Positions 18,468 to 57,278 of a stretch of 57,278 nucleotides of DNA are shown here, piece by piece. Positions within the stretch are counted from its first letter, which is position 1; each line of letters begins with the position of its first letter. The notes under the pieces are model-generated. The model was given only the letters and a program-made list of their open reading frames with translations. It made no database searches and was not told the DNA's origin. The stretch spans positions 77,242-134,519 of the forward strand of contig PWHK01000017.1 of NCBI GenBank assembly GCA_003554845.1, in the 5' to 3' direction. The DNA is from Candidatus Aenigmatarchaeota archaeon (GTDB lineage: Archaea > Aenigmatarchaeota > Aenigmatarchaeia > PWEA01). Both the position numbers and the translations under genes were made by a program.

Positions 18468-18512
18468 ATCCTGACGTATTAAAACACACAAATAGATATT
18501 GTTGGTGATAGC

Positions 18513-24633: not shown

Positions 24634-24674
24634 CTAGAAAAGTTATATAAAAAGAGAACCAAGGTTTAACCTAT

Positions 24675-25157: not shown

Positions 25158-25159
25158 CA

Positions 25160-26230: not shown

Positions 26231-26244
26231 AAAATATCTGACCT

Positions 26245-26679: not shown

Positions 26680-26730
26680 AGTAAGACTATTTGTCTGGGT
26701 TTACTTAAATCATAGCACACCGGTCTTTTG

Positions 26731-29076: not shown

Positions 29077-29078
29077 CG

Positions 29079-35240: not shown

Positions 35241-35244
35241 TATA

Positions 35245-36462: not shown

Positions 36463-36470
36463 GTGTTTAC

Positions 36471-39253: not shown

Positions 39254-40246
39254 GTGATCCAAATGAAATATGAAATGATAGGTAGAAAGTTGCCCTGGAG
39301 GCAGAAATTCGAAGATCTTTCAAAGTACTCCGGGTATCACAGAACATCCATGGAGAGGTTTCTTGGATTTCTTCTTCTCTTTGGCATATTTTTGGGAATT
39401 TCTGTTACACTTGGTGTTTTTGTTTTTACAGGCAGTACGCTGCACTCTTCGGTGACCGGTGCTTCTTTGTTTTTTGTTCTCCATATAGCACCTCTTGGAT
39501 ACCTGTCCATGGTTGCAAACAGGCGTTCCAAGGAGGTCGATAGAATACTTCCTGACGCCCTTCAACTTATGGCGGCAAACATAAGGGCAGGGATGACCAC
39601 CGAAAGGGCTATATGGCTCTCTGCAAGACCCGAATTTGGACCTCTGGAGAATGAGATACATAGACTTTCGTCAAAGGTAATGGGTGGAAAACCCCTTTCA
39701 AAGGCTCTCGGTGAGATGACCCAGAGGATAGATTCTGATCTCCTCGACAGAGCAGTTAAACTTATGACAGAGGGTATCCGGTCAGGTGGTGAGATGGCGA
39801 CTCTTTTGGATGAAACCGCCGGGGATATAAGAACTGCCCAGAACATGAGGAAGAAGGTCAGGGCCAACGTAACGATGTACTCTATGTTTATAGTTTTTGC
39901 TTCTGTGCTCGGTGCCCCTCTACTCTTTGCCCTTTCGGTTTACTTTATAGAGGTTACTTCTAGTCTGTGGGTAGAGGACATGGCGGCCACAGGAATGGGA
40001 GATATGGGAGGAACAATGATGTCCATGGAGGGTCCCGACATAGACCCCTCTACACTTAAGTTATTTTCCGTAGGTGCCATTTCAGTCACCACGTTTTTTG
40101 GAGGAATGATAATAGGTATGATACAGGAAGGCGATTCGACCAGTGGTCTTAAATACTCTCCTTTTATGCTGGCGGCAGGCCTTACTGTTTTCTTCGTGGC
40201 AAATATACTTGTTACAAAGGTCTTTGGTGGTTTCGTAGGTCTTTGA
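39254..40246 (+). CDS. type IV pilus platform protein, T2SSF domain, locus 2 subunit B
   Basis: 330 aa. LPDALQLMAANIRAGMTTERAIWLSA plus TM helices. It starts immediately after the stop of subunit A. Confidence 0.75.
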   Translation: MIQMKYEMIGRKLPWRQKFEDLSKYSGYHRTSMERFLGFLLLFGIFLGISVTLGVFVFTGSTLHSSVTGASLFFVLHIAPLGYLSMVANRRSKEVDRILPDALQLMAANIRAGMTTERAIWLSARPEFGPLENEIHRLSSKVMGGKPLSKALGEMTQRIDSDLLDRAVKLMTEGIRSGGEMATLLDETAGDIRTAQNMRKKVRANVTMYSMFIVFASVLGAPLLFALSVYFIEVTSSLWVEDMAATGMGDMGGTMMSMEGPDIDPSTLKLFSVGAISVTTFFGGMIIGMIQEGDSTSGLKYSPFMLAAGLTVFFVANILVTKVFGGFVGL

Positions 40247-43610: not shown

Positions 43611-44396
43611 TTATCTTGCCATAAGAGAAGAAAGAAGTGAGTCCACGTACCTCCTTATGTGGTGCTTGGCCTTGGGTTTAAACTCTTCGTCCACGATATC
43701 ATGTGCTATTTTTCTGTAGGCAAAGGAGGCCTTTGAGTAGGGTTTGTGATGTACAAGAGGTTTCTTGTTTACTATGCTTCTGTCTATGTTTATGTCATAA
43801 GGAACTTCGCCGAGGACATCGCATCCTGTTATACTGCTTATCTCCTTCGGACTTATCTCCTTTGATGTGAGGTTGTTCACTACTATGCCTTCGACGGTCT
43901 TGTCTAGGTCCTTCACCATTTCTGTGAGTCTTACTGCGCCTGATACAGCAGACCTCATAGGATTGGTTACAGCTATAACAGAATCCGACTGGTCTATGCA
44001 CGATACCACATTTTCACTGAGCCCAGGACCACAGTCCACGATTATATACCCACCTAGTTTTTTGAAAGCTTTATCTATGGATCTGAGGCTTGTGTTTATG
44101 TAGTTTATAGAAAGCGATGCAGGTATTAGCCTCATTCCTGTTTCATGTATATGCACTGCTTCTACAAGGCTTCTGTCCTTTTCCAGGGACTCGTTTATTG
44201 TTGACTGTGGGGAGTAGAGGCCTAGGTTTATCCCAAGGTTTGGGTCTTCCAGATCGGCATCTACAATAGTTACATCCTTTCCAAGTTTATGAAGTTCCAT
44301 TGCAAGGTTGAGGGTAGTTATGGTTTTTCCAGTCCCACCTTTACCCGAAGCTACAGATATTATCCTACCTTCACTGGAATCTCCCTTGGAGCTCAT
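43611..44396 (-). CDS. ParA/MinD-family P-loop ATPase
   Basis: 261 aa. Deviant Walker A SGKGGTGKTITTLNLA and Walker B IIVDCGPG. Confidence 0.85.
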   Translation of the reverse strand: MSSKGDSSEGRIISVASGKGGTGKTITTLNLAMELHKLGKDVTIVDADLEDPNLGINLGLYSPQSTINESLEKDRSLVEAVHIHETGMRLIPASLSINYINTSLRSIDKAFKKLGGYIIVDCGPGLSENVVSCIDQSDSVIAVTNPMRSAVSGAVRLTEMVKDLDKTVEGIVVNNLTSKEISPKEISSITGCDVLGEVPYDINIDRSIVNKKPLVHHKPYSKASFAYRKIAHDIVDEEFKPKAKHHIRRYVDSLLSSLMAR

Positions 44397-44800
44397 ATGT
44401 CAAGTTTGTAATATTTTTTCTTCCCACTTTTTTTGGCCTTGAGGATCCCCTCTTTCCTCATCTCATTTAGGTATTCGGAACTGCGCGTTCTTGAAAGATC
44501 TATCATGTCCGAGAGCTCGGTCGTCGTTACCTCACCCTCGTTTTTGAGAATGTAGATTATCTCCTTTTTCTTCTTCAGCTTCGTGTGGCTGCTGTTCCCG
44601 TTTGATATATTTTCCCTTATTTCGTCTATCTTCTCTGTAAGTTCGCTTAGCTGTGATTCTATCTGTGCTATTTCGCTCTTTCTATCCTTTCTGTTTACGG
44701 GTTTTCTGATCTGGTCCTTTATCTTCAGAAGATCCTTGTTTAACTTGATATTATCCTTTGACCCCTTCATACTACCCGGTCTTAAATTGTCGATCGACAT
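44393..44800 (-). CDS. coiled-coil plus C-terminal winged-helix DNA-binding protein (ParA partner candidate)
   Basis: 135 aa. The basic/coiled N-terminal half is followed by IIYILKNEGEVTTTELSDMIDLSRTRSSEYLNEMRKEGILKAKKSGKKKYYKL (HTH plus wing). There is a 4-nt overlap with the ParA/MinD gene. Confidence 0.55.
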   Translation of the reverse strand: MSIDNLRPGSMKGSKDNIKLNKDLLKIKDQIRKPVNRKDRKSEIAQIESQLSELTEKIDEIRENISNGNSSHTKLKKKKEIIYILKNEGEVTTTELSDMIDLSRTRSSEYLNEMRKEGILKAKKSGKKKYYKLDI

Positions 44801-44948
44801 ATAAAAACATTACATTTCAGACCCCTGTTGTGTATTTTTTTTGGATTTTTGGAGAAAAATCGATCGATATTTTTCATCATCGACAGTTTTTTTCACAAAA
44901 TCCATTTCTGTCGACCGACACCTATATAAAGGATATAATCATCGACAG
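44788..44948. promoter_or_regulatory. cluster of five TCGA-core palindromic or half-palindromic sites in the divergent intergenic region
   Basis: TGTCGATCGACA (44788-44799, perfect 12-bp palindrome overlapping the wHTH start codon). ATCGATCGAT (44859-44868, perfect palindrome). ATCATCGACAG (44876-44886). TGTCGACCGACA (44909-44920, one mismatch from site 1). ATCATCGACAG (44938-44948, identical to site 3). Confidence 0.6.
44923..44930 (+). promoter_or_regulatory. TATA-box-like element upstream of the giant ORF
   Basis: TATATAAA lies immediately after palindrome 4. GGAGG at 44969-44973 follows, 9 nt before an in-frame TTG (44983). The first in-frame ATG is at 45049. Confidence 0.4.
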
Positions 44949-45048
44949 ATAAACTATTACTATATTCTGGAGGAACACCCCCTTGAAGTCAAACACCAAA
45001 GATTTAGATAACAAAGTAAATCGTAGAGCTACCAGATCCCGTAAGAAG

Positions 45049-48000
45049 ATGGGTGAATGGTTCAGCAGTACCAGGGTAAAATCCAGAACGTCCAAGTCCG
45101 TCGTTTTCTACCTTTCCCTCCTTGTCCTTGTTTTTTTCGTAGGCCTTTTCTTTGCACATCAGACAGGGATAACGGGGTTGATCATAGGTGAGGAGGATGT
45201 GGTTACAATGGAGTATACCTATAAGGATATTCCGGGTGAAATGGGCCCAGGGAGCGAATACACTGCGGATATTGTACTCGATGAGGAAAAACATAGTCCT
45301 ACCTCTGGAAGGATTCGTCTGAATTTATCAAAGTCAGGCGACGAGGATTTGAGATTAGTTGCAGTTGATTCTACAGGAAATAGGGTATGTGAACTCGAGC
45401 CGACCGACGAGGCCGATGAGTTTGTATGTTCCCTGGATAGGGAGCATCTTCAGGAAGTAGAAGGGAGGAATCTCAGTCTTAATCTCAGGGTTGTTTCCAG
45501 GGGGGATATAGTTAGAACACCTACGGGGATGGTAATAGCACAGAATGAAACCAGTCCAGAAGAGGAACTACAGGAGAAAGATGATCAACTAACCGAAGAA
45601 CAAACAGAAGAAGCGGAGGAGAAATCAGATGAAGATGAACCAATCGAGGAAAATATAACCGAAGAAACAGACAAAGAAACAGACGAAGAAACAGACGAAG
45701 AAACAGCAGAGGAATACGAAGAAAATGTAGAGGAGAAAGAAGAGGAACAAGAAGAAGAACTAGATGAAGAAGAAGCGAAGAAGGAAGATGAATCAACAGA
45801 GGAACCAGTAAAAGAGGAGGAAGATGTCTCCGATGAAACGGAGTCTGTTAATGATACGTATCCAGATGACGAAGAGAATATAACAGAAGATGAAATACCC
45901 GAAAACATCACAGAAAACGTAACCTACGAAAAACCTGTGGAAGAAAACATCACAGAAAACGTAACCTACGAAAACATCACAGAAGAGAACATAACCGAGG
46001 ATGAAATACCCGAAAACATCACCGAGGAAAATATCACAGAAAACGTAACCTACGAAAAACCTGTGGAAGAAAACATAACAGACAATGAAACAGAAGACGA
46101 ATACACCGAGCCCGTGGGATCATTTATTCTTGTTCATGGTATGGTTCTCGAAGTGGACTACGAGTACGTTTCCGACGACGTATCCGTAGAGATGGATGCT
46201 TCTGATTATGCAGGCAGTCCGGGTGATCATATTGATTTTCAGGTGGAGATAACCAAGACTCCTGGTCTTGTAGATAAAGTGAATCTTACCGTTTTTGATG
46301 AACAGAGGGAGATGGATAGGATCAACAGAAGACAATACATCTATTCCTGGAAGATTCCCGATGTAGATGGATCTGTCCGTGTTGATGCAACTGCCTACAG
46401 TTGTAGAGATAGATGTGAGGTTGTAGGAGAGGACAGCCTGGAAATTTCATTGGAAGATGCAAGAGAAACTGTTCTTTCCATGGATTCCGATGGTAGGGTG
46501 GTCAGAGGATCCAATGTAACTGCAGAGGGTCTCTTGGAGTACACAGACGGAACAGGTGTATCCGGTGAACCCATCGAAGTGTATGTTAATGATGAACTCA
46601 TAGGGGAAAAAACCACAGATAGCGATGGTCATGTATATGTGGACTACAGTACATCCGATCTTGATCCAGGAAAACATTCGATCGGTTTTGTATACTCAGG
46701 TTCCGAAAAAGCGAGCGAATCTTCCTCCTATTCAGAATTTGAGGTCTTTGTGCCAGGGGAGGTTTCCATGGATCTGGAAGTTAGAGATGTGGAGATGGGC
46801 GAAACAATGACAGCAGTAGCCTCTTTAACCCATGGCGACGAACTGATCATGAGAGAAGATGTCGAATTCTTGATAAACGGCGAAACCGTGGAAACATTTA
46901 TCCCGGCATGCGAAGGATTGGTTGCATACCACAACACTTCTGATATGACTACAGAGGAACACAAAGTAACAGCGAGGTTTCCTGGAACAGATACTCTCGA
47001 AGCAGTGTCTGCGACAGAAACCGTGGAGGTACTTCCCAGAACAGTCCAGGGGAGGGCCATCGTCGGTAAACCTATACAGTGGAAAAAGGAAGTTGTGAGA
47101 AAGAACCATGATGAAACGGAGACGGATTTTGATATATCTATTCCTCTTCCCGAAGGAATTGAAAATGTTGAGGCAAGGGAACTGCACCCTACAATGAGGG
47201 ATGTTGATGATTTTGAACTCTTAGAAAATAAAGCCACGATATATTCCAGAATACCCCCGGGTCAGATGAAGAAATACGGTATATTATTTGAGACGAAACC
47301 ACCGGAAAAGATCGAAGAAGATATAGAAAACGGCAAGAGGGTAACGGTCAGATCGGATGCACCTCTTTCCTACAGCGACGTATATACGAACACGACAATA
47401 CCCGAGACGGATCAGAAGCCTACCCTATACAGACTTGTTAACGACACCCGGGTTGATGTTACAGACGATCCAGAATACGATGTAAACTACCTTGACACAA
47501 CGGACACGGGGAACTACGATATCATAGAATGGAACGTCCCAAGCCTCTCTGAAGAGGTCTTCGAAGTAAGTATAACGGTGCTCAATGTACAGAGTTACCC
47601 GGTGGTTGGAGGCAACTGGACGGTTGAGTTCAATACAACAGGCAAAGCAGATCTCAACATAACGGCAGTCAACACAACGTGGGATAATGAAACCGAGAAC
47701 CACGACCTCAAGTTCATCGAGCTTGAGTGTGGCGAAGAATACGTTGACCACGAGTGGCTGAACTACGGTGATGGCAGGGGTTCGGTGTATGTAGAAAACT
47801 ACTCGTGTAATGAAACAGGATACGAGACATCTAGCGTGCATACAACCGGTGAGCACCATCTCAAATTCGAGTTCGGAAACGACACGGCATATGCACACAA
47901 CGATGCCAGTCTTACTTCATATGGCTCACTCAGTTGTGAGGCAGAAGGAGACCCTTTGTGTCGAGGGCCTTATCCGTGTAGCGATAGTGAATGCTGGATA

Positions 48001-51000
48001 GATGATTCGGATTGTGACTACAGTTGTCCGAATGTAGATAATGCCCATTTGGAAGGTGAATCGTGTTCCGTTTCGGCGTCAGGGGATTGTTATTGTGATG
48101 AACAAATTGGGGATTGTATATGGAGTGAAATTGGAGAATGTGAAGTATCGGGTAGTTGTACGTACGTATGTGAGGATGGATACTATTGGGAAGGAGGTGA
48201 GTGCCACCGGAAACCACCAGACTACATAGAAATAGAACCCGAGACAGCCACGATAACTGCAGGTGGCACACAGAGCTACACTGCAACAGCATACTGTGAG
48301 GACGATATAGAACTAGGAGACGTTACAGGAGACACAAGCTGGTATGTAGTAGAGTCGAAAGCAGGTGGAAGCTGGGATGGTAACACTTACACATCGGAGA
48401 ATGGAGGTAGCTGGACTGTGGCGGGTCATTATGAAGAGGCGGAAAATCCAGAAAATGTATCCACACTCAATGTCATAAATCCAGAAATACATGACTGGCA
48501 CGAATTGGATGCTATAAGGTACAGTTTGGACGGCGACTACACCTTGATGAACGACCTGGACGAGAACACGGATGGATACGAGAAGTATATAGATAATATA
48601 TATGATGATTTTGAGGGGCAGTCGGATGGATCAGATCCTGATGGATGGGTGCTTGAGAATGTAGAGGAAGACATCGAGATAGACACAAGTATTTCTCAAG
48701 TAGGTGACGGAAGTCTGCTCATAAAAGACCAACCCAACGACGGAGATGTGCCAGAAGCATATCTACCGTTTGACTCCAAAGAAAGTCCTGGCGAAGTATC
48801 TTTTTGGTATAGAAGAAGGGCCTGGCAAGGACAGGACTCATCTGACTACCATCAGCATAGATTCCAGCTTGACGACGGCACTACAATTTTCGGCATGACC
48901 ATATATGGCTATGATGAAGAAGACCCGTTGGGTTTTTCACCCAGTGGAGGAGATGAAAAACAGTTCGGTACGTTTGAAGAGTGGTATAAAATCAGGTTTC
49001 AAAATATAGATTGGTCCGAGCACACATACGATGCCGAGGTACGCAATGTAGACGGTAACCAATTGGCTTCCTGGATCAATTTAGATTTCGGGGAGGATTA
49101 CGGTTATATAGAAAGATTCAATATTCGCTATAAATCCTGGTCTACCGAAGGAGCCAACATTGATTATATTTCCCAAGATGGTGGCTGGGACCCGATAGGT
49201 GACGGAAGCAGTTCGTTTACAGGGAACTTCTACGGTGATGGCAAAGAAATCAGTGATCTTTATATAGATAAGCAAGACAGTTACGTGGGACTTTTCGGAT
49301 ATGTTCAAGGAACAATTGAAGACATACATCTCAGGGATGTAAATGTCAGAGGAGAGACTAACACTGGAGGATTGGTTGGTAGATTGGACGGAACGATTAA
49401 AGATTCTTCCACATCCGGTGAGGTGGGTTTAAATTCGGGCGAAAGAGTTGGTGGTTTAGTGGGATACACAGTTTCTGGTTCTTTGATTGAGGAAAGTTAC
49501 TCCGAGGCGAATGTACTTCTTCTCGAAGACACAACAAGTTGGAACAGATTAGGAGGATTAGTAGGAAGGGGCCATGGAACTATCGAAAGAAGTTATGCTA
49601 CGGGAGATGTTATTGATACTACTGGAGATGGAAGACAGATAGGTGGACTTGTGGGAAGGTATGCTGATGAAACAATAAAAGATTCATTTGCTACAGGAGA
49701 AGTAGTAGTAAACGGCGAAAGAGGGGGTTCTCTGGTTGGTGATCTACAGGGAGGATATATTGAAAAATCCTATGGTACAGGTTCGGTAACAGGAGATGGA
49801 AATAATCTAGGAGGTTTGGTAGGAATTGATAGCGGGGGAGATGGTGTTATTGACTCATACTGGAATGTTGAGACTTCTGGTCAATCAACGAGTGACGTTG
49901 GAGAAGGCAGAACAACGGAAGAGATGACGTGGGAGTATGGTAGCAACACATACGATGGATGGGATTTTGGAAATATATGGCAAGACGGAGACCATGCAAC
50001 TGTGATCGATCATGAAGGTAACTGGGGCTATCCTGCTTTGGATTTCCAGGACTGGGTTGAGCCCCTTTCCTCGACTATAACTCCGGATGGTGTAGACTGG
50101 CAGAACACAGATCAAGGGTATCAAATAGACTGTGATGATGGTGATCTTGGTTGTGACACAACTTACTGGGAAATTGTAGATTCGGGATCAAGTTGTCCTT
50201 CACAGGGTAACTTTGCGAACTCCGGCTCACCAACTGTATCAGATACCGTAACCTGTCCAGACGGTGAAACCTGTACGAAGGATGTATGTTACTATTCAGA
50301 AGATGTTGAGGGAAACGTCGAAAATATACAGAGAAGTGATACCTTTAATATAGATAAAGTTGATCCCACGACGGATGTAAACATATCAGAGAGATCCTGG
50401 GATAACACAGATGTTTCGGTTGAAATAACAGCTACCGATGACGGAAGTGGTGTAGTTGTAACTTCCTACTGTTGGACCGAAGGGACAACTTGTACACCCG
50501 GTACAACGTCGTCAGGTAGTTCTGTAGATACAACACAGACACAGACAGGTGAATGGACCCTTTGTCACCGTGCAGAAGATGATGCCGGTAACATCGGGGA
50601 TACACAGTGCGATGGGCTTTATAGGATAGATAAGGAAGATCCAACGACTTCTATAGACTCTCCTGCTTCGGGATCCTGGCAGAATGATGATTTTGACGTG
50701 AGTTTTTCGGACTCGGACGATGTTTCAGGTTTGGACGTCTGTGAGTACAGAGTTTTAGACGATGGTACAGTGGCATTGGGCTGGACGTCGAGGGCCTGCG
50801 GTGGATCAGAGACGATTGATGTACCGGGTGACTGTGGTACAGAAGGTTCCAATATATGTACAGTTGAATCACGTGCTACGGACAATGCAGGTAATGTAGA
50901 CCAGGATTCCAGAAGTTTCAGTATAGACTACACGGACCCGGACAGCTCTGCAAGTCCGACATCAAGATCTTGCGATAACACCTCTGTATCAGTTGATATA

Positions 51001-54000
51001 ACTGCTTCAGATTCCCACAGTGGTGTTGATGGTATAGAACACTGCTGGACCACAGGCTCAAGTTGTACACCCGATATTTTTTCCTCGGGAAGTTCCAATA
51101 CTGTTACACAAAGTTCTACAGGGGAGTGGAACCTTGAGTACAGGGCCATAGATAACGCTGGTAATATTGAATCACCTAACCAGGATGGCCCCTATATAGT
51201 CGATAAGGAGGATCCTTCTCTAAGTCAGGTACAGACGGATCCGGGGTCGCCTGCTACATATGAACCTGGCAAGGAGTACCAGTTCAATGCTACGTGGATC
51301 AATCCGGCAGACGTTCCGTGTGGTATCGAGGAAGTTGAGTTCGAGATAGATGGGGTCACGTACAGTTATCAGTCAAATGAAATTTCAAGTTCAGGCGACG
51401 AATACTTTGTATCTGTTTCCGACCTTGATCAGGGAACCTACAACTACGAATGGTCTGCGTGGGACGAAGCAGGTAACTCCTATTCTGATACATTTACGTA
51501 CGAGATCGACGAGGCGGATCCTTCCGATGATCTGTACGTTGCAATAGACGGAACTGAAGACCCCGGAGGTACTGTTTCCGTGGTCGAAGGAACATCTGTT
51601 GATGTCGATGGTTGGTCGGAGCTGGAAGACAACCAGCTCAGTTTTGAACTACGAAGAGATGGAACTCAGGTTGCTACCGGTGATCCGGCAAACCACACAG
51701 AGGACACATCAAGCCTTGGTCCAGGTTACTACGACTATAAGTATTATGCATTCAATGGAGAGAACTACCAGAACGGTGAATCTTACACCATGACCCTGGA
51801 AGTATTCGAGGAGTGCAATGTTGATCTTGAGTTGAACGATCACCAGGGAGATATATCGATTACATACGGAGACGATGTTTATTCTGAAGCAAATATAACT
51901 GTTGATCAAAGCCCGGATTGGAGTATATACAGGGACAGGGGAACAGGCGACGAGGAGGTTCTCGTGACAGGTTCCACAACAGAGACCCTTCAGCATACTA
52001 CCTCAGGCGGAGAACTGGCTGCAGGACAAGATTATATATACGAAGCATATTGGGATGGAAACGAATACTACGATCCATGCGGAGAATCGCATACTGTAAC
52101 CGTTAACAAGGAATCATCGGATGTTGATCTTACAATAAGTCAAAATCCTGTTACTGCAGGCGACCAGGTAACAGTTTCCTGTGATATAGTAGATGGTGAC
52201 GACAGTGCATGGATAACCATAGAAGAGAACGATTCTGTGGTTACAGAAGGAGAAGGAGATCAACAGTATCAGGTTACACATACTGTTTCCGATGACTACA
52301 AGTACGACTGTTACTACGATGAATCAGAAAACTACACATCATCCAGCGACGAGGAAAACTATCTTACGGTAGAACCCGGTGATCCTGATTACATAGAAAT
52401 AGAACCACAGTCTTCGACTATAATTTCCGGTAATTCGGAGACCTATACATCAGAGTCGTATGACGAGTATGGTAACTATATAGACGACGTGACTTCCAGT
52501 ACCTCCTGGTCAATAGAGTCAGGGGCGGGAGGGAGCTGGGATGGTAATACATATACCTCACAGAACGCAGGGACGTGGACTGTGACCGGTCATTACGACC
52601 AGGCAGTTAATCCGGAAGACACTGCAACACTTAATGTAGATCCAAAGCCGGAGATATACGACTGGCACGACCTCAACAATATAAGAGAAGATCTGAGCGG
52701 GAACTACGTACTGATGAACGACCTCGACGAGAACACCGATGGTTACAGTGACTACAACACAGGGGATGGTTGGACTGCCATAGGAAGTGCTTACGATATT
52801 TTTACAGGAAGCCTCGATGGACAAGGAAATGTTATAGAGAATTTATATACAGATTCAAGTGATTCGGTTGTGGGTTTATTTGGAGCAACTTCTTCAGGAG
52901 CAGTAGTTAAAGACATAGGTTTAGAGAACATAAGTTTCACAACAGACTACTTCAATATATATGATGATTCTGGAGCAGGTGGACTGGTAGCTTTATCGGG
53001 AGATGCTACAATTGAAAACTGTTACGTTACAGGAGAGGTTACAGGTATACATCAGGTTGGAGGTATTCTTGGAGGAGGTCAAGGCCATACAGTAAAAAAC
53101 TGCTATGCAGGCACAAACGTATCGGGAGATGAACATGTTGGTGGGGCCATCGGTTATCATGATGGTATCCTGGAGGATTCCTATTCGACAGGAAGGATAA
53201 GCTCAGTGGAATCTTCTGCAGGTGGTTTAGTTGGATCAAGTCCACTGGGAAGTGGTATTTATAACTCATACGCGAACACCGAAATCAGCGTAGAAGATAC
53301 CAGTCGAGGGGGTGAAGGCAGAACTACAGAAGAAATGACATGGAACTACAGCACGAACACTTACGAAAACTGGGACTTTGATAACACATGGCAGGACGGG
53401 GCACATGCAATTGTAGAGGATTATGAGGGAAATGTCGGTTATCCTGCACTAGAGTGGCAGGATCATGTTGATGCACATACTCTGACAATAAATATAAACG
53501 GACATGGTAGCACGGATCCATCAGAAGGAGTTCACACGTACAAAGTCAATGAAGACGTCACAGTAGAGGCAATACCAAACCAGGGATGGGAGTTCGACGA
53601 GTGGACAGGTGACGAAACAGGAACACAGCAACAGATAACAGTAACTATGGATTCTGACAAGACGATAACTGCAAACTTTGAAGTTCCTTCAGAAATAACG
53701 AACTGGCATGAATTAGATGCTATAAGGCACAGTTTGGACGGCGACTACACCTTGATGAACGACCTCGACGAGAACACCGATGGTTACAGCGACTACAACA
53801 CAGGTGATGGTTGGGAGCCGATAAACGGGTTCGAGGGTACCTTGGATGGACAAAACAATATGATTAAGGATCTATACATAAGTAGATCCGAAGATATTGT
53901 AGGACTGTTCGGTGAAATTCCAGAAGAAGCAAGCACTGAAATTGAAAATTTACAGCTAATTGACGTTGATGTGAGCAATGATGGTGATTACACAGGAGCA

Positions 54001-57000
54001 TTAGTTGGAGGATTTTACGCCGACTACGGTTATATAAAAAACATTAATGTTACCGGAATAATAGAAGGTGACATTAGGGTAGGGGGCATCGGAGGTTGGT
54101 TGCGAAGAGGCTATGGTAAAAATCTAACTGTGGATGCAATAGTTTCTGGGAGTGGAAATTTGGTGGGTGGTATTACTGGCTACCAACACCAAGATTTGGA
54201 AAATGTAAAGGTTTACGGCTCCGTCGAATCAACTTCATCTCGAGTAGGTGGTATAGTTGGTGAAATGAGGGGAAACATTCAAAAAGCTGAAAACTATGCA
54301 TCTGTCGAAGGAACCAGTGATGTAGGGGGTTTGGTGGGTAGAATAAGAGGATCAAGAGATATATCCAATTCTTTAAATGCAGGGGATATAAGTGGAGACG
54401 AGAACATAGGCGGTGCTGTAGGTAGGGTTAATGCATGGGGTTCAATTTCTATTGAAGAAGTTTATTCAACTGGCAATGCTGAAGGTAACATCCATGTAGG
54501 AGGTCTAATTGGAATCAACTGCAATAATGATGACAGAAGTAAGATGTATTTAAAGGATTCCTATTCAACTGGCGATGTAATCGGTGACGAGTATATAGGC
54601 GGTCTAATTGGTGCTGATATATGGGATTCTGATATACAAAATAGCTATTCTGTAAGTCATATTTCAGGAAATGAATACACTGGAGGCATGGTTGGATACT
54701 TAGAAGATGATCCTGAAACAAGCCTAAGTAGTTCTTACTGGGATGTAATAATCTCCAGTATATATGAGTCGGATGGTGGCGAAGGTAAAACTACCTACGA
54801 AATGACGGTGGAGGATACATTTGAAGGATGGGACTTCACAAACACGTGGGATGTATCAGAACGTGAGCACTATCCATGTCTTCAGTGGCAGGATTCGGGA
54901 ACGTGTCCAGGGGCGGAACAGGAAGTTTACGATATAAGCAACTGGTATGAGCTTCATAACGTGCGGATGGATCTCGATGGGGACTACAGTCTGGATAATG
55001 ATTTAACTGATGGAAATGTTGGTTATGATGAGTATGCTTCCGATAGTGCGGATGATGGGAGTGGTTGGGAGCCGATAGGTGTAGATTACGGAGAAGATAC
55101 ACACTTCGATGGAACTTTAGATGGGCAGACCTATACAATTTCAGATCTCTATATAAATAGACCAGGCGAAACCGAAGTAGGTTTGTTCGGAGTATCAAGG
55201 ACTTCGGTCCAGAATCTTAATATAAATAATGCACATGTTGAAGGAAACAATAGAGTTGGAATACTTTCTGGATACAACATAGTGGGTGGCCCCTTCACAA
55301 ATATCAGCGTAGGGGGTAATGTGGTTGGGAGTGATTCTACAGGAGGTCTTATAGGTAGACAGTACGATGCAGTTGTGCAGGGATGTTATGCAAATGTCTC
55401 CGTTTACAGCGATGGTAGTAATGTAGGTGGTTTGATAGGACACCAATTTTTCGGAGCAACTACAAAGGATTCTTACGCGGTAGGTAATGTCGAAGGTAGT
55501 AACCGGGTCGGTGGTCTTATAGGAAGATTGAGGCACGAAGGATCAGAAGTCAAAAGATCATTTTCGTCATCAGAAGTTGTTGGAGGCGACGACACAGGTG
55601 GATTAATAGGAATAGTACAGACAGCCGGCAGTTACAGATCTTCTGGGGATATAGTTATAGAGAACAGTTATTCAAATACTGAGGTCAGCAACCAAAATGA
55701 TCTCATAGGAACTATATCAGATACAGCCGAAGACCACGATATTGTAGTCAAGGGAAGCAGAACATCAGATGCCAATGAGATGACATGGGAGTATGCACAA
55801 ACACTCGAATTTGATGGATCAAGTGATCACTTGACTAAAGACTTTGTTCCAGATACAACTAATCCTTCTTGGACTGTTAGCATATGGTTCAAAGTCGAAG
55901 AAAATTCAGGGGAAAACACCCTTTTCCATCATCACTCAGGTGACAATGTTCGTATATACGCAAGCTCATATTATGGATGGCGTCTGGGTGACTCAGAGAT
56001 AGGTAACCCATCATTTGAGGAAGGTGTTTGGAACCACGGCGTTCTTACGGGAGATGGATCCACTGGTAGTATTTATATAAATGGAGAACAGGTAGCAACT
56101 GACTCATACAGCTGGGACACGGAAGGAACTTCAACTAACTTTGAAATTGGATCACCAGTCGCAGGAAACTGTGACTACTTAAAGGGTAATGTGGATGATT
56201 TGCGTATATATGATCGTGGCTTGTCAGAATCGGAAATCAACGAACTTTATGAAAGCAGACATGGCTTGCTAGGCGATGAGGTTGGTTGGTGGCCGATGAA
56301 TGAAGGCGGTGGAAGTACAGTTTACGACGAAACTCACAACGATAACGATGGAACGATTCACGGTGCTGACTGGACAAGCATGTACCACAACTGGGACTTC
56401 GAAAACGTGTGGTTAGATGGTGCACATGCCATAGTTGAAGATTCAGAAGGGAGGGTTGGTTATCCTGCACTGCAATGGCAGGACTGGGTGAATGGAAACA
56501 CATTAACAGTAAACGTGGAGGGAATGGGAAGTGCTGATCCCTCTAGAGGAGTGCATACCTACAAGGTAGGTGAAACTGTAACAGTAACCGCCGACGACCA
56601 TGCAGCTGGATGGGATTTCAGTCACTTCTCCAACGACTGCTCCGGAACAACATGTGAAGTGACAATGGATACAAATCGAGAAGTTACTGCACACTTCGAA
56701 GCGGACTATAGTGTAGATGTAACAGCACCTACGGATGCAACTGAACAGCAACCTGGAACATATACATACTATTTCGATGTAGAAAATCTTGGCTTTGAGG
56801 ACACATACGACCTAAGTGCAAGTCAAACGGAAGGCTGGACTGTGGATGTTCAGAACACTGTTTTCGTGGATACCCACGAAACAGAGTCTGTGGGGGTAGA
56901 TGTAACCATACCGGACGATGCTGGCGAAGTAACAAATTCTGTAACTCTCGAAGCCACAAGCCAGTCGGACGGAACAGTATCGGACTCCGACAGCTTCGAT

Positions 57001-57278
57001 GTCACAGCCGACCATACACCACAGGTTACGGTATCTGCACCCATTAACCAGGAGGAAAGTTCACCTGGAACCTATACATATACATTCGATATTACCAATC
57101 CATCAGACTTCGAGGACACATACGATCTAAGTGCAGGCGATACTGAGAACTGGCTTGTAGGTGGCCCATCACCCGATCCTGTTACAGTTGGTCCGGGTAG
57201 TACAGAACAGGTAACCGTGGACGTGCAGATTGACGACGATGTCGGTGGAGAAACTACAACTGTAACTCTTACAGCCAC
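45049..57278 (+). CDS. giant mosaic cell-surface protein, partial (frame open from 44953 to the window end; at least 4,076 codons from the first ATG)
   Basis: I translated the frame by hand without meeting a stop. The ORF track lists nothing in this frame, consistent with an ORF that leaves the window. N-terminal basic stretch plus TM helix (VVFYLSLLVLVFFVGLFFA). Acidic N-x-T repeat stalk. Ig-like modules and a 14-Cys region. Two Big_2-like domains (PDYIEIEP...). Four GLUG-type beta-helix modules (GGLVG repeats, capped by WDF..W....YPAL.WQ). LamG. Two InlB-B-repeat-like domains. CARDB-like modules at the end. An alternative TTG start at 44983 is preceded by GGAGG. Confidence 0.9.
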   Translation, partial: MGEWFSSTRVKSRTSKSVVFYLSLLVLVFFVGLFFAHQTGITGLIIGEEDVVTMEYTYKDIPGEMGPGSEYTADIVLDEEKHSPTSGRIRLNLSKSGDEDLRLVAVDSTGNRVCELEPTDEADEFVCSLDREHLQEVEGRNLSLNLRVVSRGDIVRTPTGMVIAQNETSPEEELQEKDDQLTEEQTEEAEEKSDEDEPIEENITEETDKETDEETDEETAEEYEENVEEKEEEQEEELDEEEAKKEDESTEEPVKEEEDVSDETESVNDTYPDDEENITEDEIPENITENVTYEKPVEENITENVTYENITEENITEDEIPENITEENITENVTYEKPVEENITDNETEDEYTEPVGSFILVHGMVLEVDYEYVSDDVSVEMDASDYAGSPGDHIDFQVEITKTPGLVDKVNLTVFDEQREMDRINRRQYIYSWKIPDVDGSVRVDATAYSCRDRCEVVGEDSLEISLEDARETVLSMDSDGRVVRGSNVTAEGLLEYTDGTGVSGEPIEVYVNDELIGEKTTDSDGHVYVDYSTSDLDPGKHSIGFVYSGSEKASESSSYSEFEVFVPGEVSMDLEVRDVEMGETMTAVASLTHGDELIMREDVEFLINGETVETFIPACEGLVAYHNTSDMTTEEHKVTARFPGTDTLEAVSATETVEVLPRTVQGRAIVGKPIQWKKEVVRKNHDETETDFDISIPLPEGIENVEARELHPTMRDVDDFELLENKATIYSRIPPGQMKKYGILFETKPPEKIEEDIENGKRVTVRSDAPLSYSDVYTNTTIPETDQKPTLYRLVNDTRVDVTDDPEYDVNYLDTTDTGNYDIIEWNVPSLSEEVFEVSITVLNVQSYPVVGGNWTVEFNTTGKADLNITAVNTTWDNETENHDLKFIELECGEEYVDHEWLNYGDGRGSVYVENYSCNETGYETSSVHTTGEHHLKFEFGNDTAYAHNDASLTSYGSLSCEAEGDPLCRGPYPCSDSECWIDDSDCDYSCPNVDNAHLEGESCSVSASGDCYCDEQIGDCIWSEIGECEVSGSCTYVCEDGYYWEGGECHRKPPDYIEIEPETATITAGGTQSYTATAYCEDDIELGDVTGDTSWYVVESKAGGSWDGNTYTSENGGSWTVAGHYEEAENPENVSTLNVINPEIHDWHELDAIRYSLDGDYTLMNDLDENTDGYEKYIDNIYDDFEGQSDGSDPDGWVLENVEEDIEIDTSISQVGDGSLLIKDQPNDGDVPEAYLPFDSKESPGEVSFWYRRRAWQGQDSSDYHQHRFQLDDGTTIFGMTIYGYDEEDPLGFSPSGGDEKQFGTFEEWYKIRFQNIDWSEHTYDAEVRNVDGNQLASWINLDFGEDYGYIERFNIRYKSWSTEGANIDYISQDGGWDPIGDGSSSFTGNFYGDGKEISDLYIDKQDSYVGLFGYVQGTIEDIHLRDVNVRGETNTGGLVGRLDGTIKDSSTSGEVGLNSGERVGGLVGYTVSGSLIEESYSEANVLLLEDTTSWNRLGGLVGRGHGTIERSYATGDVIDTTGDGRQIGGLVGRYADETIKDSFATGEVVVNGERGGSLVGDLQGGYIEKSYGTGSVTGDGNNLGGLVGIDSGGDGVIDSYWNVETSGQSTSDVGEGRTTEEMTWEYGSNTYDGWDFGNIWQDGDHATVIDHEGNWGYPALDFQDWVEPLSSTITPDGVDWQNTDQGYQIDCDDGDLGCDTTYWEIVDSGSSCPSQGNFANSGSPTVSDTVTCPDGETCTKDVCYYSEDVEGNVENIQRSDTFNIDKVDPTTDVNISERSWDNTDVSVEITATDDGSGVVVTSYCWTEGTTCTPGTTSSGSSVDTTQTQTGEWTLCHRAEDDAGNIGDTQCDGLYRIDKEDPTTSIDSPASGSWQNDDFDVSFSDSDDVSGLDVCEYRVLDDGTVALGWTSRACGGSETIDVPGDCGTEGSNICTVESRATDNAGNVDQDSRSFSIDYTDPDSSASPTSRSCDNTSVSVDITASDSHSGVDGIEHCWTTGSSCTPDIFSSGSSNTVTQSSTGEWNLEYRAIDNAGNIESPNQDGPYIVDKEDPSLSQVQTDPGSPATYEPGKEYQFNATWINPADVPCGIEEVEFEIDGVTYSYQSNEISSSGDEYFVSVSDLDQGTYNYEWSAWDEAGNSYSDTFTYEIDEADPSDDLYVAIDGTEDPGGTVSVVEGTSVDVDGWSELEDNQLSFELRRDGTQVATGDPANHTEDTSSLGPGYYDYKYYAFNGENYQNGESYTMTLEVFEECNVDLELNDHQGDISITYGDDVYSEANITVDQSPDWSIYRDRGTGDEEVLVTGSTTETLQHTTSGGELAAGQDYIYEAYWDGNEYYDPCGESHTVTVNKESSDVDLTISQNPVTAGDQVTVSCDIVDGDDSAWITIEENDSVVTEGEGDQQYQVTHTVSDDYKYDCYYDESENYTSSSDEENYLTVEPGDPDYIEIEPQSSTIISGNSETYTSESYDEYGNYIDDVTSSTSWSIESGAGGSWDGNTYTSQNAGTWTVTGHYDQAVNPEDTATLNVDPKPEIYDWHDLNNIREDLSGNYVLMNDLDENTDGYSDYNTGDGWTAIGSAYDIFTGSLDGQGNVIENLYTDSSDSVVGLFGATSSGAVVKDIGLENISFTTDYFNIYDDSGAGGLVALSGDATIENCYVTGEVTGIHQVGGILGGGQGHTVKNCYAGTNVSGDEHVGGAIGYHDGILEDSYSTGRISSVESSAGGLVGSSPLGSGIYNSYANTEISVEDTSRGGEGRTTEEMTWNYSTNTYENWDFDNTWQDGAHAIVEDYEGNVGYPALEWQDHVDAHTLTININGHGSTDPSEGVHTYKVNEDVTVEAIPNQGWEFDEWTGDETGTQQQITVTMDSDKTITANFEVPSEITNWHELDAIRHSLDGDYTLMNDLDENTDGYSDYNTGDGWEPINGFEGTLDGQNNMIKDLYISRSEDIVGLFGEIPEEASTEIENLQLIDVDVSNDGDYTGALVGGFYADYGYIKNINVTGIIEGDIRVGGIGGWLRRGYGKNLTVDAIVSGSGNLVGGITGYQHQDLENVKVYGSVESTSSRVGGIVGEMRGNIQKAENYASVEGTSDVGGLVGRIRGSRDISNSLNAGDISGDENIGGAVGRVNAWGSISIEEVYSTGNAEGNIHVGGLIGINCNNDDRSKMYLKDSYSTGDVIGDEYIGGLIGADIWDSDIQNSYSVSHISGNEYTGGMVGYLEDDPETSLSSSYWDVIISSIYESDGGEGKTTYEMTVEDTFEGWDFTNTWDVSEREHYPCLQWQDSGTCPGAEQEVYDISNWYELHNVRMDLDGDYSLDNDLTDGNVGYDEYASDSADDGSGWEPIGVDYGEDTHFDGTLDGQTYTISDLYINRPGETEVGLFGVSRTSVQNLNINNAHVEGNNRVGILSGYNIVGGPFTNISVGGNVVGSDSTGGLIGRQYDAVVQGCYANVSVYSDGSNVGGLIGHQFFGATTKDSYAVGNVEGSNRVGGLIGRLRHEGSEVKRSFSSSEVVGGDDTGGLIGIVQTAGSYRSSGDIVIENSYSNTEVSNQNDLIGTISDTAEDHDIVVKGSRTSDANEMTWEYAQTLEFDGSSDHLTKDFVPDTTNPSWTVSIWFKVEENSGENTLFHHHSGDNVRIYASSYYGWRLGDSEIGNPSFEEGVWNHGVLTGDGSTGSIYINGEQVATDSYSWDTEGTSTNFEIGSPVAGNCDYLKGNVDDLRIYDRGLSESEINELYESRHGLLGDEVGWWPMNEGGGSTVYDETHNDNDGTIHGADWTSMYHNWDFENVWLDGAHAIVEDSEGRVGYPALQWQDWVNGNTLTVNVEGMGSADPSRGVHTYKVGETVTVTADDHAAGWDFSHFSNDCSGTTCEVTMDTNREVTAHFEADYSVDVTAPTDATEQQPGTYTYYFDVENLGFEDTYDLSASQTEGWTVDVQNTVFVDTHETESVGVDVTIPDDAGEVTNSVTLEATSQSDGTVSDSDSFDVTADHTPQVTVSAPINQEESSPGTYTYTFDITNPSDFEDTYDLSAGDTENWLVGGPSPDPVTVGPGSTEQVTVDVQIDDDVGGETTTVTLTA
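45547..46110 (+). repeat. coding low-complexity acidic region with imperfect tandem DNA repeats (ENITENVTYEKPVEE units)
   Basis: The E/D/T-rich translation includes ETDKETDEETDEET. A ~111-nt-spaced direct repeat (about 45886-45950 and 45997-46077) shares GATGAAATACCCGAAAACATCAC...ACAGAAAACGTAACCTACGAAAAACCTGTGGAAGAAAACAT. Confidence 0.85.

What the first reader, a model, noticed from the sequence alone, without database searches (positions are those of the whole stretch)
45049..57278. Giant (>4,000 aa, incomplete) mosaic surface protein, the most striking element of the window
One reading frame is open from 44953 to the last base, 12.2 kb from the first ATG. Order of parts: signal-anchor helix; ~190-aa polyacidic N-x-T-rich stalk; Ig-like region; 14-Cys knot region; Big_2-like domain; GLUG beta-helix module 1. 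Then come about eight Ig-like modules, a second Big_2-like domain, GLUG module 2 and an InlB-B-repeat-like domain. GLUG modules 3 and 4 follow, with a LamG nested in module 4, then a second B-repeat-like domain and at least two CARDB-like modules at the window edge. Proteins this size are a major investment for a compact genome. In DPANN and CPR episymbionts they are suspected host-attachment or host-perforation devices; the SPEARE proteins reported for Antarctic Nanohaloarchaeota are one example. I see no protease or endonuclease domain in the visible part, so I cannot equate it with SPEARE.
Basis: partly seen in the sequence, partly recalled or inferred. Interest (0 to 1): 0.8.

Follow-up and report, generated by a model that had tools for sequence, protein, structure and literature searches.

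The report
Giant modular surface adhesin, DPANN archaeon
The window ends in a real, more than 4,000-residue membrane-anchored surface protein of a soda-lake DPANN archaeon, built on a base shared with hundreds of other DPANN giant proteins and carrying swappable binding modules, most likely a host-attachment fibre and not shown to be a SPEARE protein.

Summary
One frame is open from 44953 to the last base (4,108 codons, chance about 1e-106).

New points:
- The start is probably TTG 44983, not ATG 45049.
- Residues 655-960 form a strongly conserved domain that Pfam and NCBIfam do not annotate. It matches about 1,470 protein clusters and lies near the N-terminus of giant proteins, mostly from DPANN genomes.
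- Of 31 complete relatives, none ends in a membrane helix plus ATPase, the defining SPEARE feature. One relative of 6,253 aa does.
- The locus is syntenic in sister genomes, but the outer modules differ. One co-occurring strain has a domain swapped in frame.
- The closest relatives of the GLUG modules are small surface proteins of soda-lake Thermoplasmata.

Best reading: an N-anchored, glycosylated adhesin fibre with a conserved base and a fast-changing tip. The C-terminus is unseen, and no other assembly corroborates residues beyond about 1,240. This is a new variant of a known kind.

The parts
44924..44985 (+). Putative promoter and start: TATATAAA box (44924-44931), GGAGG (44970-44974) and TTG start (44983-44985)
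   Evidence: Read directly from the sequence. The ortholog in L051 has ATG at the equivalent position.
44983..57278 (+). Giant open reading frame, incomplete at the window end (4,098 aa from TTG, 4,076 aa from ATG 45049)
   Evidence: No stop from 44953 to the end. Chance probability about 1e-106. The visible part is 446 kDa with pI 4.05.
45103..45159 (+). Single N-terminal transmembrane helix (signal-anchor), preceded by a basic cytoplasmic tail
   Evidence: It is the only hydrophobic segment in the visible protein. The juxtamembrane motif AHQTGITGL(I/M)IGEEDV is conserved in the ortholog L051.
45160..45543 (+). Small juxtamembrane domain with two cysteines, family unknown
   Evidence: 32% identical to the same position in L055. 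Also present in L051 and P0132. No Pfam or NCBIfam hit.
45544..46113 (+). Polyacidic stalk rich in N-x-T sequons (47% Asp+Glu, 16 sequons), with 42-nt tandem repeats
   Evidence: A similar stalk is present in L051, L055 and P0132.
46114..47010 (+). Ig-like region (two Big_3_5 domains)
   Evidence: Pfam Big_3_5, E 4e-12.
47011..47928 (+). Conserved, unannotated domain of three tandem beta-sandwiches; core motif LNVQSYPxVGGNWTVxFNTTG...CNETGYE...YAHN
   Evidence: 1,467 representative clusters at E<1e-3 and 891 at E<1e-10. The core is 50-63% identical in 148 of them. AF2 model pLDDT 90. Only generic Ig/adhesin fold matches. No Pfam or NCBIfam family. 259 loci in GTDB species genomes; most of the 80 listed are DPANN.
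47929..48210 (+). Cysteine-rich segment with 14 Cys
   Evidence: Cys positions 963-1052. Longer CCGDD-type Cys-rich regions follow the conserved domain in P0132 and L055.
48211..48477 (+). Big_2-like Ig domain, copy 1; replaced by an unrelated Ig-like cassette in a co-occurring strain
   Evidence: 58% identical to copy 2. Weak LigA match, E 0.005. In-frame replacement in L002 with flanks 93% and 81% identical.
48478..50088 (+). GLUG beta-helix supermodule 1, with a nested ~200-aa domain of unknown family at 48589-49203
   Evidence: Pfam Glug, 4 stretches. Internal repeats. The nested part has no family hit and no homolog found here.
50089..52380 (+). About eight Ig-like spacer modules of ~95 aa each
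   Evidence: NCBIfam OmpL47-type barrel, E 2e-18. Big_13, DUF7743 and Big_3_5 hits. Self-similarity.
52381..52638 (+). Big_2-like Ig domain, copy 2
52639..53688 (+). GLUG supermodule 2 (beta-helix plus cap), followed by InlB-type B-repeat 1 (53473-53688)
   Evidence: Pfam Glug and Flg_new_2. AF2 model pLDDT 87, a beta-helix. Foldseek matches: 3N6Z and the IgA1-protease structures 6XJA and 7UVK.
53689..54918 (+). GLUG supermodule 3
   Evidence: Pfam Glug; weak Peptidase_M26_N hit. Repeats.
54919..56493 (+). GLUG supermodule 4 with a LamG (Laminin_G_3) lectin-type domain nested in its cap (55813-56241)
   Evidence: Pfam Glug; Laminin_G_3, E 3e-20. PDB 4QVS match. Cap halves read in the sequence.
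56494..56712 (+). InlB-type B-repeat 2
   Evidence: Flg_new_2, E 1e-8. 58% identical to repeat 1 together with its cap.
56713..57276 (+). Two Ig-like (E-set) modules, cut by the window end
   Evidence: FixG_C, Ig_VWA7 and NPCBM_assoc hits. 53-55% identical to each other.
43611..44800 (-). Divergent neighbours, a winged-helix regulator (44393-44800) and a ParA/Mrp-type ATPase (43611-44396); their pairing with the giant gene is conserved
   Evidence: Pfam. Same arrangement in L052, L051 and L055.

Best explanation
This is a membrane-anchored giant adhesin fibre of a haloalkaliphilic DPANN archaeon, with its N-terminus in the cytoplasm.

Proposed layout, from the membrane outward:
- A short basic tail and one helix hold it in the symbiont's membrane.
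- A polyacidic, probably N-glycosylated stalk and two Ig-like domains lift it off the cell.
- A highly conserved triple beta-sandwich domain forms a common base shared with hundreds of other giant surface proteins, mostly of DPANN archaea. It presumably contacts something invariant, such as the cell's own envelope or an assembly partner.
- The outer three quarters alternate rigid GLUG beta-helices, LamG-type lectin domains and Ig-like or B-repeat spacers. These bind surface glycans or proteins of another cell.

The outer modules are exchanged by recombination between strains and species, which changes binding specificity.

Shown: the ORF, the topology signals, the folds, the conservation pattern, the synteny and the module replacement. 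Inferred: glycosylation, the role of the base domain, binding to a host, and everything beyond the window end.
For: - ORF and domains.
- Topology: a single N-terminal helix and no other hydrophobic segment.
- GLUG module: a confident beta-helix model whose best structural matches are 3N6Z and the IgA1-protease structures 6XJA and 7UVK. From my own knowledge, the matched part is their non-catalytic beta-helix.
- No catalytic motifs or enzyme families.
- Base domain: conserved at 50-63% identity across 148 clusters, median start near residue 410, normally behind one N-terminal helix.
- Base architecture (helix, two-Cys domain, N-x-T stalk, Ig, conserved domain, Cys-rich region) is shared with L055, L051 and P0132.
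- The same HTH-ParA-giant gene locus holds different distal modules in three sister genomes.
- In-frame cassette replacement in a strain that is 99.6% identical over the aligned 8.5 kb beside the swap.
- Surrounding genes are two type IV pilus-like loci with LamG and VWA proteins.
- The literature treats GLUG/Flg_new proteins and DPANN LamG/Ig giants as putative adhesins.
Against: - There is no experimental evidence of expression, glycosylation, localisation or binding.
- The C-terminus is missing.
- Residues beyond about 1,240 are found in no other assembly searched.
- The host is unknown.
- Adhesin-type folds also occur in protective coats and S-layer-associated proteins.
- The function of the conserved base domain is guessed from its position and conservation only.
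Confidence: 0.6

Rival explanations
1. SPEARE-type giant protein. Beyond the window end the ectodomain would be followed by a second membrane helix and a cytoplasmic HerA/VirB4-like ATPase with a coiled coil, so the protein would be part of a secretion or uptake conduit into the host.
For: - P0145 (6,253 aa, complete on a 397-kb contig) has the same conserved base domain at residues 350-676. It also has a C-terminal helix followed by DUF87/HerA_C, a weak ResIII hit and a coiled coil.
- SPEARE proteins all carry LamG and adhesion domains, and one has its membrane helix at the N-terminus.
Against: - 0 of 31 complete ORFs with the base domain end in a helix followed by a P-loop.
- Among 44 representatives of 2,000 aa or more, only P0145 shows a C-terminal helix directly followed by a P-loop.
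- The complete syntenic homolog in T1Sed10_94 (2,309 aa) has neither.
- There is no Walker A in the visible 4,076 aa.
Confidence: 0.1
2. Protective or structural coat protein, similar in role to halomucin or an S-layer-associated protein. It would shield the tiny cell against desiccation, viruses or high pH rather than binding a host.
For: - It is extremely acidic and rich in sequons.
- Halomucin's sequence relatives are reported to include GLUG-domain proteins.
- The closest GLUG module relatives are multi-copy surface proteins of Thermoplasmata. One of these genomes carries purine-synthesis genes next to a GLUG gene, which suggests a free-living organism.
Against: - Module swapping between strains and non-orthologous distal parts at a syntenic locus fit specificity turnover better than a coat.
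- Lectin-type LamG domains are present and pilus loci lie next door.
- Only one copy is seen in the window.
Confidence: 0.15
3. Assembly artefact or pseudogene: a chimeric join of repeated modules from several genes or strains.
For: - All other assemblies of this population break inside the gene at residues 1,039-1,240. One breaks exactly in a repeat that is 90% identical to a second copy.
- No independent contig covers the distal part.
Against: - 12.3 kb without a stop.
- The longest exact internal repeat is 44 nt, and 36 nt between GLUG linkers. Repeat families are otherwise only 60-92% identical.
- Codon usage and GC match the rest of the window.
- The module order is coherent, with linker, helix, cap and B-repeat units intact.
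Confidence: 0.05
4. Enzyme array: the beta-helices would act as polysaccharide lyases or hydrolases that open the host envelope.
For: Beta-helix folds are common in such enzymes. There are weak Foldseek matches to a fucoidan lyase and a pectate lyase (E 0.4-1.6).
Against: - Those matches are not significant.
- The best matches are 3N6Z and IgA1-protease structures, not lyases or hydrolases.
- There are no enzyme families or catalytic motifs.
Confidence: 0.05

Closest known systems
SPEARE / giant membrane-anchored proteins of Nanohaloarchaeota (NAR1_1133, SVXNc_0300, BNXNv_0298)
   Same: Multi-thousand-residue, very acidic, mostly extracellular protein of a DPANN archaeon from a hypersaline habitat. 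It is made of LamG and Ig-like adhesion domains and lies close to type IV pilus-like genes. One SPEARE-type protein, P0145, shares the conserved base domain.
   Different: - No C-terminal helix plus HerA/VirB4-like ATPase is visible, and complete relatives lack it.
- GLUG beta-helices dominate, rather than the WD40/PQQ propellers and ~75 Ig domains described for SVXNc_0300.
- The anchor is N-terminal.
- The organism belongs to a different lineage, PWEA01 or Aenigmatarchaeota-labelled.
Stand-alone GLUG + Flg_new_2 surface proteins (about 500-630 aa) of soda-lake Thermoplasmata (Natronoplasma, Saliniplasma, B1Sed10_20)
   Same: The whole unit of linker (EIxDWxDLxxIRxxLxGxYxLMNDLD), beta-helix, cap (EMTWEY...WDF...GYPxLxWQ) and B-repeat aligns end to end at 44% identity to P0012. 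Identity reaches 50% over 65% of the unit to P0011.
   Different: Those are single-module proteins present in many copies per genome. Here four units are fused in one chain on a DPANN-type base.
IgA1 protease (M26) N-terminal beta-helix and BACOVA_03286 (PDB 3N6Z, 6XJA, 7UVK)
   Same: Best structural matches of the GLUG module (E 9e-6 to 8e-4). There is also a weak Peptidase_M26_N hit.
   Different: No M26 catalytic domain and no HExxH. TM-scores are only 0.36-0.47.
Halomucin (Hmu) of Haloquadratum walsbyi
   Same: A giant, acidic, secreted archaeal protein of a hypersaline organism. Its database relatives are reported to include GLUG-domain proteins.
   Different: Halomucin is proposed to be a protective coat of a free-living cell. 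No direct sequence comparison was made here.
Unnamed family of giant surface proteins, mostly from DPANN genomes, with the NVQSYP...GGNWTV domain (e.g. MFB6076258.1 = P0132, MBN2422330.1 = P0220)
   Same: One N-terminal helix, then a stalk, Ig-like domains, the conserved domain and a variable distal part. P0132 is alignable over residues 275-956 of the giant, plus its Ig and LamG parts.
   Different: The distal parts differ. NCBI names these proteins only 'LamG-like jellyroll', 'DUF2341' or 'hypothetical'. I found no description of the family: no Pfam or NCBIfam model, and nothing in four paper searches on SPEARE, GLUG and DPANN giant proteins. No search used the motif itself.

Membership tests
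SPEARE-type giant proteins | Membrane helix near the C-terminus followed by a cytoplasmic P-loop ATPase. Hamm 2019 described it as a type III restriction enzyme; it was re-read in 2023 as VirB4/TraG-like. | not testable with these tools
   The window ends before the stop, and no contig with the continuation was found. Indirect evidence: 0 of 31 complete relatives and the syntenic 2,309-aa homolog lack it, while P0145 has it.
SPEARE-type giant proteins | Very long, mostly extracellular chain with at least one laminin-G domain and several adhesion domains | tested here: met
   At least 4,076 aa, one N-terminal helix, Laminin_G_3 at E 3e-20, plus Ig-like and B-repeat domains.
SPEARE-type giant proteins | Serine protease domain (named in the original definition, later disputed) | tested here: not met
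   No peptidase family in Pfam or NCBIfam in the visible part. The 2023 re-analysis doubts this feature for the family itself.
GLUG-motif proteins (PF07581) | Repeated GLUG motifs above Pfam's gathering score | tested here: met
   74.5 bits against a cut-off of 20.5, in four blocks. The model is a beta-helix with pLDDT 87.
IgA1-specific metalloendopeptidase (M26) | Zinc-metalloprotease catalytic domain with HExxH | tested here: not met
   No HExxH anywhere. Only the non-catalytic Peptidase_M26_N region matches, weakly and below its cut-off.
InlB B-repeat / Flg_new_2 (PF18998) | Domain match above the gathering score | tested here: met
   66.2 bits against a cut-off of 23.6, in two copies.
Big_2 (bacterial Ig-like group 2) | Match to the Big_2 profile | tested here: inconclusive
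   No Pfam hit even at E<=1. Only a weak match to LigA, E 0.005.
CARDB | Match to the CARDB profile | tested here: not met
   The terminal modules hit FixG_C, Ig_VWA7 and NPCBM_assoc, not CARDB. They share the general Ig-like fold class only.
Giant surface proteins with the NVQSYP-GGNWTV domain (unnamed) | N-terminal membrane helix followed within a few hundred residues by the conserved triple beta-sandwich domain | tested here: met
   Helix at aa 19-37 and domain at aa 655-960. The core is 50-63% identical to 148 representative clusters and 71% identical to the L055 locus.
Halomucin | Sequence homology to Hmu repeats and CTLD domains | not tested
The link rests on a statement in PMC3119063.

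The most novel reading that the evidence does not exclude
The conserved, unannotated triple beta-sandwich domain (window 47011-47928) may define a superfamily of giant surface proteins, mostly of DPANN archaea, that includes both SPEARE-type (ATPase-ended) and purely extracellular members. It would act as the common socket that fixes these fibres in the symbiont's envelope or to a shared assembly partner, while the distal modules are swapped to change host specificity. As a corollary, the distal GLUG units of this protein are closest to the multi-copy GLUG surface proteins of co-occurring soda-lake Thermoplasmata. This may reflect module exchange with the host and so point to the host of this uncultured lineage.
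Probability: 0.3. Interest if true: 0.7.

Novelty: new variant of a known kind. Interest (0 to 1): 0.5.

Why it matters
Giant surface proteins are the leading candidates for how DPANN archaea recognise and hold their hosts, but only a few nanohaloarchaeal examples have been looked at. This locus extends the phenomenon to a soda-lake lineage outside the classical Nanohaloarchaeota.

It also shows a 'conserved base, variable tip' design with direct evidence of cassette replacement between strains. And it exposes a widespread domain that no curated library names. That domain could be used as a marker to find and classify such proteins across DPANN genomes, and as a defined target for structural and binding studies.

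Tried and rejected
- The whole 4,076-aa protein as a query to the 5.8-billion-protein index timed out. Shorter queries were used instead.
- Looking for the continuation of the gene failed in four ways. An exact 60-mer from the window end is absent from the GTDB species genomes. The last 517 aa have no close homolog, only LamG proteins at about 30% identity. The last 309 aa and residues 1,400-2,440 found no same-population contig in JGI metagenomes.
- All seven contigs that carry the neighbouring ParA gene stop at or before residue ~1,240 of the giant.
Trimmed alignments worked.
- tRNA and Rfam scans of the window found nothing.
- Sequence search of the PDB gave only a LamG match. It gave nothing for the Ig run or the nested domain.
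- The nested domain in GLUG module 1 could not be linked to the LamG-like regions of P0132 or L055.
- Recent horizontal transfer of the whole gene was considered and dropped. GC is 0.447 against 0.438 and the RSCU correlation is 0.87. GC3 is only somewhat lower in the distal modules.
- An M26 protease reading was rejected because there is no HExxH.
Full report
**1. The observation**

The reading frame that begins at 44953 runs without a stop to the last base of the window. That is 4,108 codons, or 4,076 residues from ATG 45049. With the window's base composition, the probability of no stop over this length is about 1e-106, so this is a real coding region cut by the window end. The visible part is 446 kDa with pI 4.05. 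It contains 10.5% Asp, 10.0% Glu and 45 N-x-S/T sequons.

Upstream lie a TATATAAA box (44924-44931) and GGAGG (44970-44974), followed eight bases later by TTG 44983. The ortholog in the related MAG T1Sed10_105 has an ATG at exactly the equivalent position. The true start is therefore probably TTG 44983, which gives a basic cytoplasmic tail of about 40 residues.

**2. Anatomy**

Residue numbers count from ATG 45049.
- **Membrane helix.** The only hydrophobic segment is at about residues 14-46.
- **Juxtamembrane domain.** A small domain with two cysteines follows the helix.
- **Stalk.** Residues 166-355 are 47% acidic and carry 16 sequons, with 42-nt tandem repeats.
- **Ig-like region.** Two Big_3_5 domains.
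- **Conserved domain.** Residues 655-960, discussed in section 3.
- **Cysteine-rich segment.** Exactly 14 Cys at 963-1052.
- **Big_2-like domain.** No Pfam hit; only a weak match to LigA.
- **Four GLUG supermodules.** Each is built as linker (EIxDWxxLxxIRxxLxGxYxLMNDLDENTDGY), beta-helix and cap (EMTWEY...NWDFxNxW...GYPALxWQD).
- **Nested domains.** Module 1 carries a ~200-residue domain of unknown family (1181-1385). Module 4 carries a LamG nested in its cap.
- **Spacers.** Modules 2 and 4 are each followed by an InlB-type B-repeat (Flg_new_2). Modules 1 and 2 are separated by about eight ~95-residue Ig-like modules (OmpL47-type, Big_13, Big_3_5) and a second Big_2-like copy.
- **Window edge.** Two Ig-like modules (FixG_C, Ig_VWA7 and NPCBM_assoc hits) are cut by the window end.

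The AlphaFold model of GLUG module 2 with its B-repeat is confident (pLDDT 87) and shows a beta-helix. Its best structural matches are BACOVA_03286 (3N6Z) and the streptococcal and Gemella IgA1-protease structures 6XJA and 7UVK. From my own knowledge, the matched region is their non-catalytic beta-helix.

No peptidase, nuclease or other enzyme family was found. There is no HExxH and no Walker A motif in the visible part.

The exceptions are the start codon, the missed nested domain, the loose 'Big_2', 'CARDB' and 'knot' labels, and the special nature of residues 655-960.

**3. The conserved base domain**

An exhaustive HMMER search with residues 355-1055 found 1,467 representative clusters at E<1e-3 and 891 at E<1e-10. 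Nearly all align to residues ~655-955.
- The core (LNVQSYPxVGGNWTVxFNTTG ... DLKFLExxCG ... YxCNETGYExSKVLTxGKHxLxFxFG...YAHN) is 50-63% identical in 148 clusters that otherwise share little.
- It sits at a median start of residue 410, normally behind one N-terminal helix, and often in proteins of 2,000-6,700 residues.
- Neither Pfam (models to 2025) nor NCBIfam (2026) has a model for it. Homologs in the precomputed tables carry no Pfam domain there.
- NCBI names the relatives 'LamG-like jellyroll', 'DUF2341' or 'hypothetical'.
- The AlphaFold model (pLDDT 90) shows three tandem beta-sandwiches. The only structural matches are generic ones to Gram-positive adhesin C-domains and factor XIII barrels, at TM-score about 0.25.
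- A scan of one genome per GTDB species found 259 loci. Most of the best 80 are labelled Woese-, Pace-, Nano-, Aenigmat-, Micr-, Alti- or Nanohal-archaeota, Ca. ainarchaeum, or unclassified archaeon. About fifteen are labelled Methanosarcinales, Thermoplasmatota, Methanobacteriota or 'bacterium', and I did not check those labels.
- Several genomes have two or three copies.

**4. Relation to SPEARE**

Hamm et al. defined SPEARE proteins by a giant ectodomain with LamG and adhesion domains, a membrane helix near the C-terminus and a cytoplasmic 'type III restriction' domain (PMC6642349). A 2023 re-analysis reads that domain as a VirB4/TraG-like ATPase and doubts the protease and nuclease parts (PMC10266531).
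- The corresponding end of the present protein lies beyond the window.
- Among 31 ORFs that carry the base domain and are complete within the fetched loci (626-4,039 residues), none has a helix followed by a P-loop at the C-terminus.
- Among 44 representatives of 2,000 residues or more, only P0145 shows a C-terminal helix directly followed by a P-loop.
- P0145 (6,253 residues, complete on a 397-kb contig) has the base domain at 350-676. It also has a C-terminal helix followed by DUF87/HerA_C (with a weak ResIII hit) and a coiled coil.

The base domain therefore links the two architectures, but the ATPase-ended form is the rare one. I put about 10% on this protein being of that type.

**5. Organism and locus**

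No rRNA, tRNA or Rfam feature is in the window.
- RtcB is 80-83% identical and ParA 72-75% identical to soda-lake MAGs labelled Aenigmatarchaeota or Nanobdellati (T1Sed10_94 = PWEA01, T1Sed10_105, D1M06_85, DKSSA4).
- PWEA01 is used as a phylum-level placeholder next to Nanohaloarchaeota (PMC9765267).
- Contigs 99.6-100% identical to the window occur in a sample named SL_8KL_010_SED (JGI 3300000557; the name suggests soda-lake sediment), in ENA and Logan assemblies, and in GCA_022257675.1. All end inside the giant gene by residue ~1,240. One ends exactly in a 98-nt repeat that is 90% identical to a second copy.
- The divergent pair of winged-helix regulator and ParA next to the giant gene is conserved in three sister genomes.
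- D1M06_85 has the same base (31-40% identity, 71% in the core), followed by LamG-like, Cys-rich and Ig modules and no GLUG within 2,116 residues.
- T1Sed10_105 has the same N-terminus, including the motif AHQTGITGL(I/M)IGEEDV.
- T1Sed10_94 has a complete 2,309-residue protein with two GLUG modules, fn3-like repeats and a glycine-rich region. It has no base domain and no C-terminal helix or ATPase.
- A strain 99.6% identical over the aligned 8.5 kb beside the swap (ERZ27265998) has the first Big_2-like domain replaced in frame by an unrelated Ig-like cassette.
- The rest of the window holds housekeeping genes, a PKD protein, and two type IV pilus-like loci with a LamG protein and a VWA protein.

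**6. Origin of the GLUG units**

The complete unit aligns end to end at 44% identity with P0012. It reaches 50% identity over 65% of its length with P0011. Both are ~590-residue stand-alone proteins of GCA_003553425.1. A member of P0011's cluster sits on a 32,769-nt contig, the same length as PUNG01000126.1 of Thermoplasmata B1Sed10_20.

The linker variant [DN]Y[VTI]L[ML]NDLD was found at 87 loci in GTDB species genomes. These are dominated by Thermoplasmata from soda-lake and other hypersaline samples (Natronoplasma, Saliniplasma, Haladaptatiplasma; at least eight loci in B1Sed10_20 alone), with some bacteria from the same sediment MAG series and a few DPANN. Composition does not indicate a recent transfer of the whole gene.

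**7. Mechanism**

I commit to an N-anchored adhesin fibre with four layers:
- a membrane helix;
- a glycosylated acidic stalk;
- a conserved base that contacts an invariant partner;
- a long distal array of beta-helix, lectin and Ig modules that binds another cell's surface.

Specificity would be renewed by module exchange. Shown are the ORF, the topology signals, the folds, the conservation pattern, the synteny and the cassette swap. Inferred are glycosylation, the role of the base, host binding and the unseen C-terminus. Confidence is 0.6.

Rivals:
- SPEARE-type conduit, 0.1.
- Protective coat like halomucin, 0.15.
- Assembly chimera or pseudogene, 0.05. The longest exact internal repeat is 44 nt, but no other assembly corroborates the distal part.
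- Enzyme array, 0.05.

**8. Novelty and interest**

Giant adhesin-like proteins of DPANN archaea are a known kind, so the central finding is a new variant rather than a new category. Three things go beyond the known:
- the GLUG-dominated architecture in a lineage outside classical Nanohaloarchaeota;
- the direct evidence for cassette replacement;
- the widespread, uncurated base domain that also occurs in a SPEARE-type protein.

I found no paper that combines GLUG with DPANN, and none of the four paper searches on SPEARE, GLUG or DPANN giant proteins turned up a description of the base domain. No search used the motif itself. Interest is 0.5.

Noticed in passing
window 22892-30938: First type IV pilus-like locus: two T2SSF membrane proteins (22892-24633, +), a 356-aa LamG protein (25160-26230, -), several small unannotated ORFs (26245-29076, -) and a T2SSE ATPase (29079-30938, -).
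   Followed up: partly
window 31306-40246: Second type IV pilus-like locus: small proteins with weak DUF7266 and DUF7287 hits, an 872-aa VWA-domain protein (32622-35240), a 405-aa protein without hits, a T2SSE ATPase with a PilB3-like C-terminus (36799-38373) and two T2SSF proteins. With the giant gene, this makes 22-57 kb a dense cell-surface region.
   Followed up: partly
window 43611-44800; P0132 residues 1-65: The winged-helix regulator gene lies divergent from the giant gene here and in three sister genomes. In the distant relative P0132 a winged-helix domain is fused to the cytoplasmic N-terminus of the giant protein itself, which hints at a functional link between regulator and fibre.
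   Followed up: partly
window 48197-48531 versus L002 106-503: A strain from another sample (ENA ERZ27265998) carries an unrelated Ig-like cassette in place of the first Big_2-like domain. It is in frame, with flanks 93% and 81% identical.
   Followed up: yes
window 45160-45200; N-termini of P0132, P0151, P0162, P0165, P0175, P0177, P0179, P0189, P0198 and others: A short motif of the form hydrophobic-T-G-hydrophobic-x-hydrophobic (GITGLIIG here) lies just outside the N-terminal helix. By a strict pattern it occurs in 32 of 121 relatives that have an N-terminal helix. It could be a processing or sorting signal.
   Followed up: partly
window 16072-19283: A cluster of a GCS2-type ligase, a YheC/D-type ATP-grasp enzyme and an AstE/AspA-type deacylase. 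Its first two genes (16072-18467) have lower GC (0.376 and 0.407) than the window average of 0.435.
   Followed up: no
window 12143-14125: A 660-aa protein with a PKD domain, another candidate surface protein.
   Followed up: no
P0197; L076 and L086 (ORFs of 3,366-3,488 aa): Some proteins with the conserved base domain also contain a block of many membrane helices (residues ~1,040-1,590). This is a third architecture beside the N-anchored and the ATPase-ended forms.
   Followed up: no
L141, L147, L156, L164, L176, L191, L192, L206 (PUNG01, Thermoplasmata B1Sed10_20): One soda-lake Thermoplasmata genome holds at least eight loci with the same GLUG linker variant as the giant protein, a large paralogous family of GLUG surface proteins.
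   Followed up: partly
L052 2500-9429 (-), residues ~1,465-1,645: The syntenic 2,309-aa protein of T1Sed10_94 contains a glycine-rich region with a weak hit to the ALK/LTK glycine-rich domain (E 6e-4).
   Followed up: no
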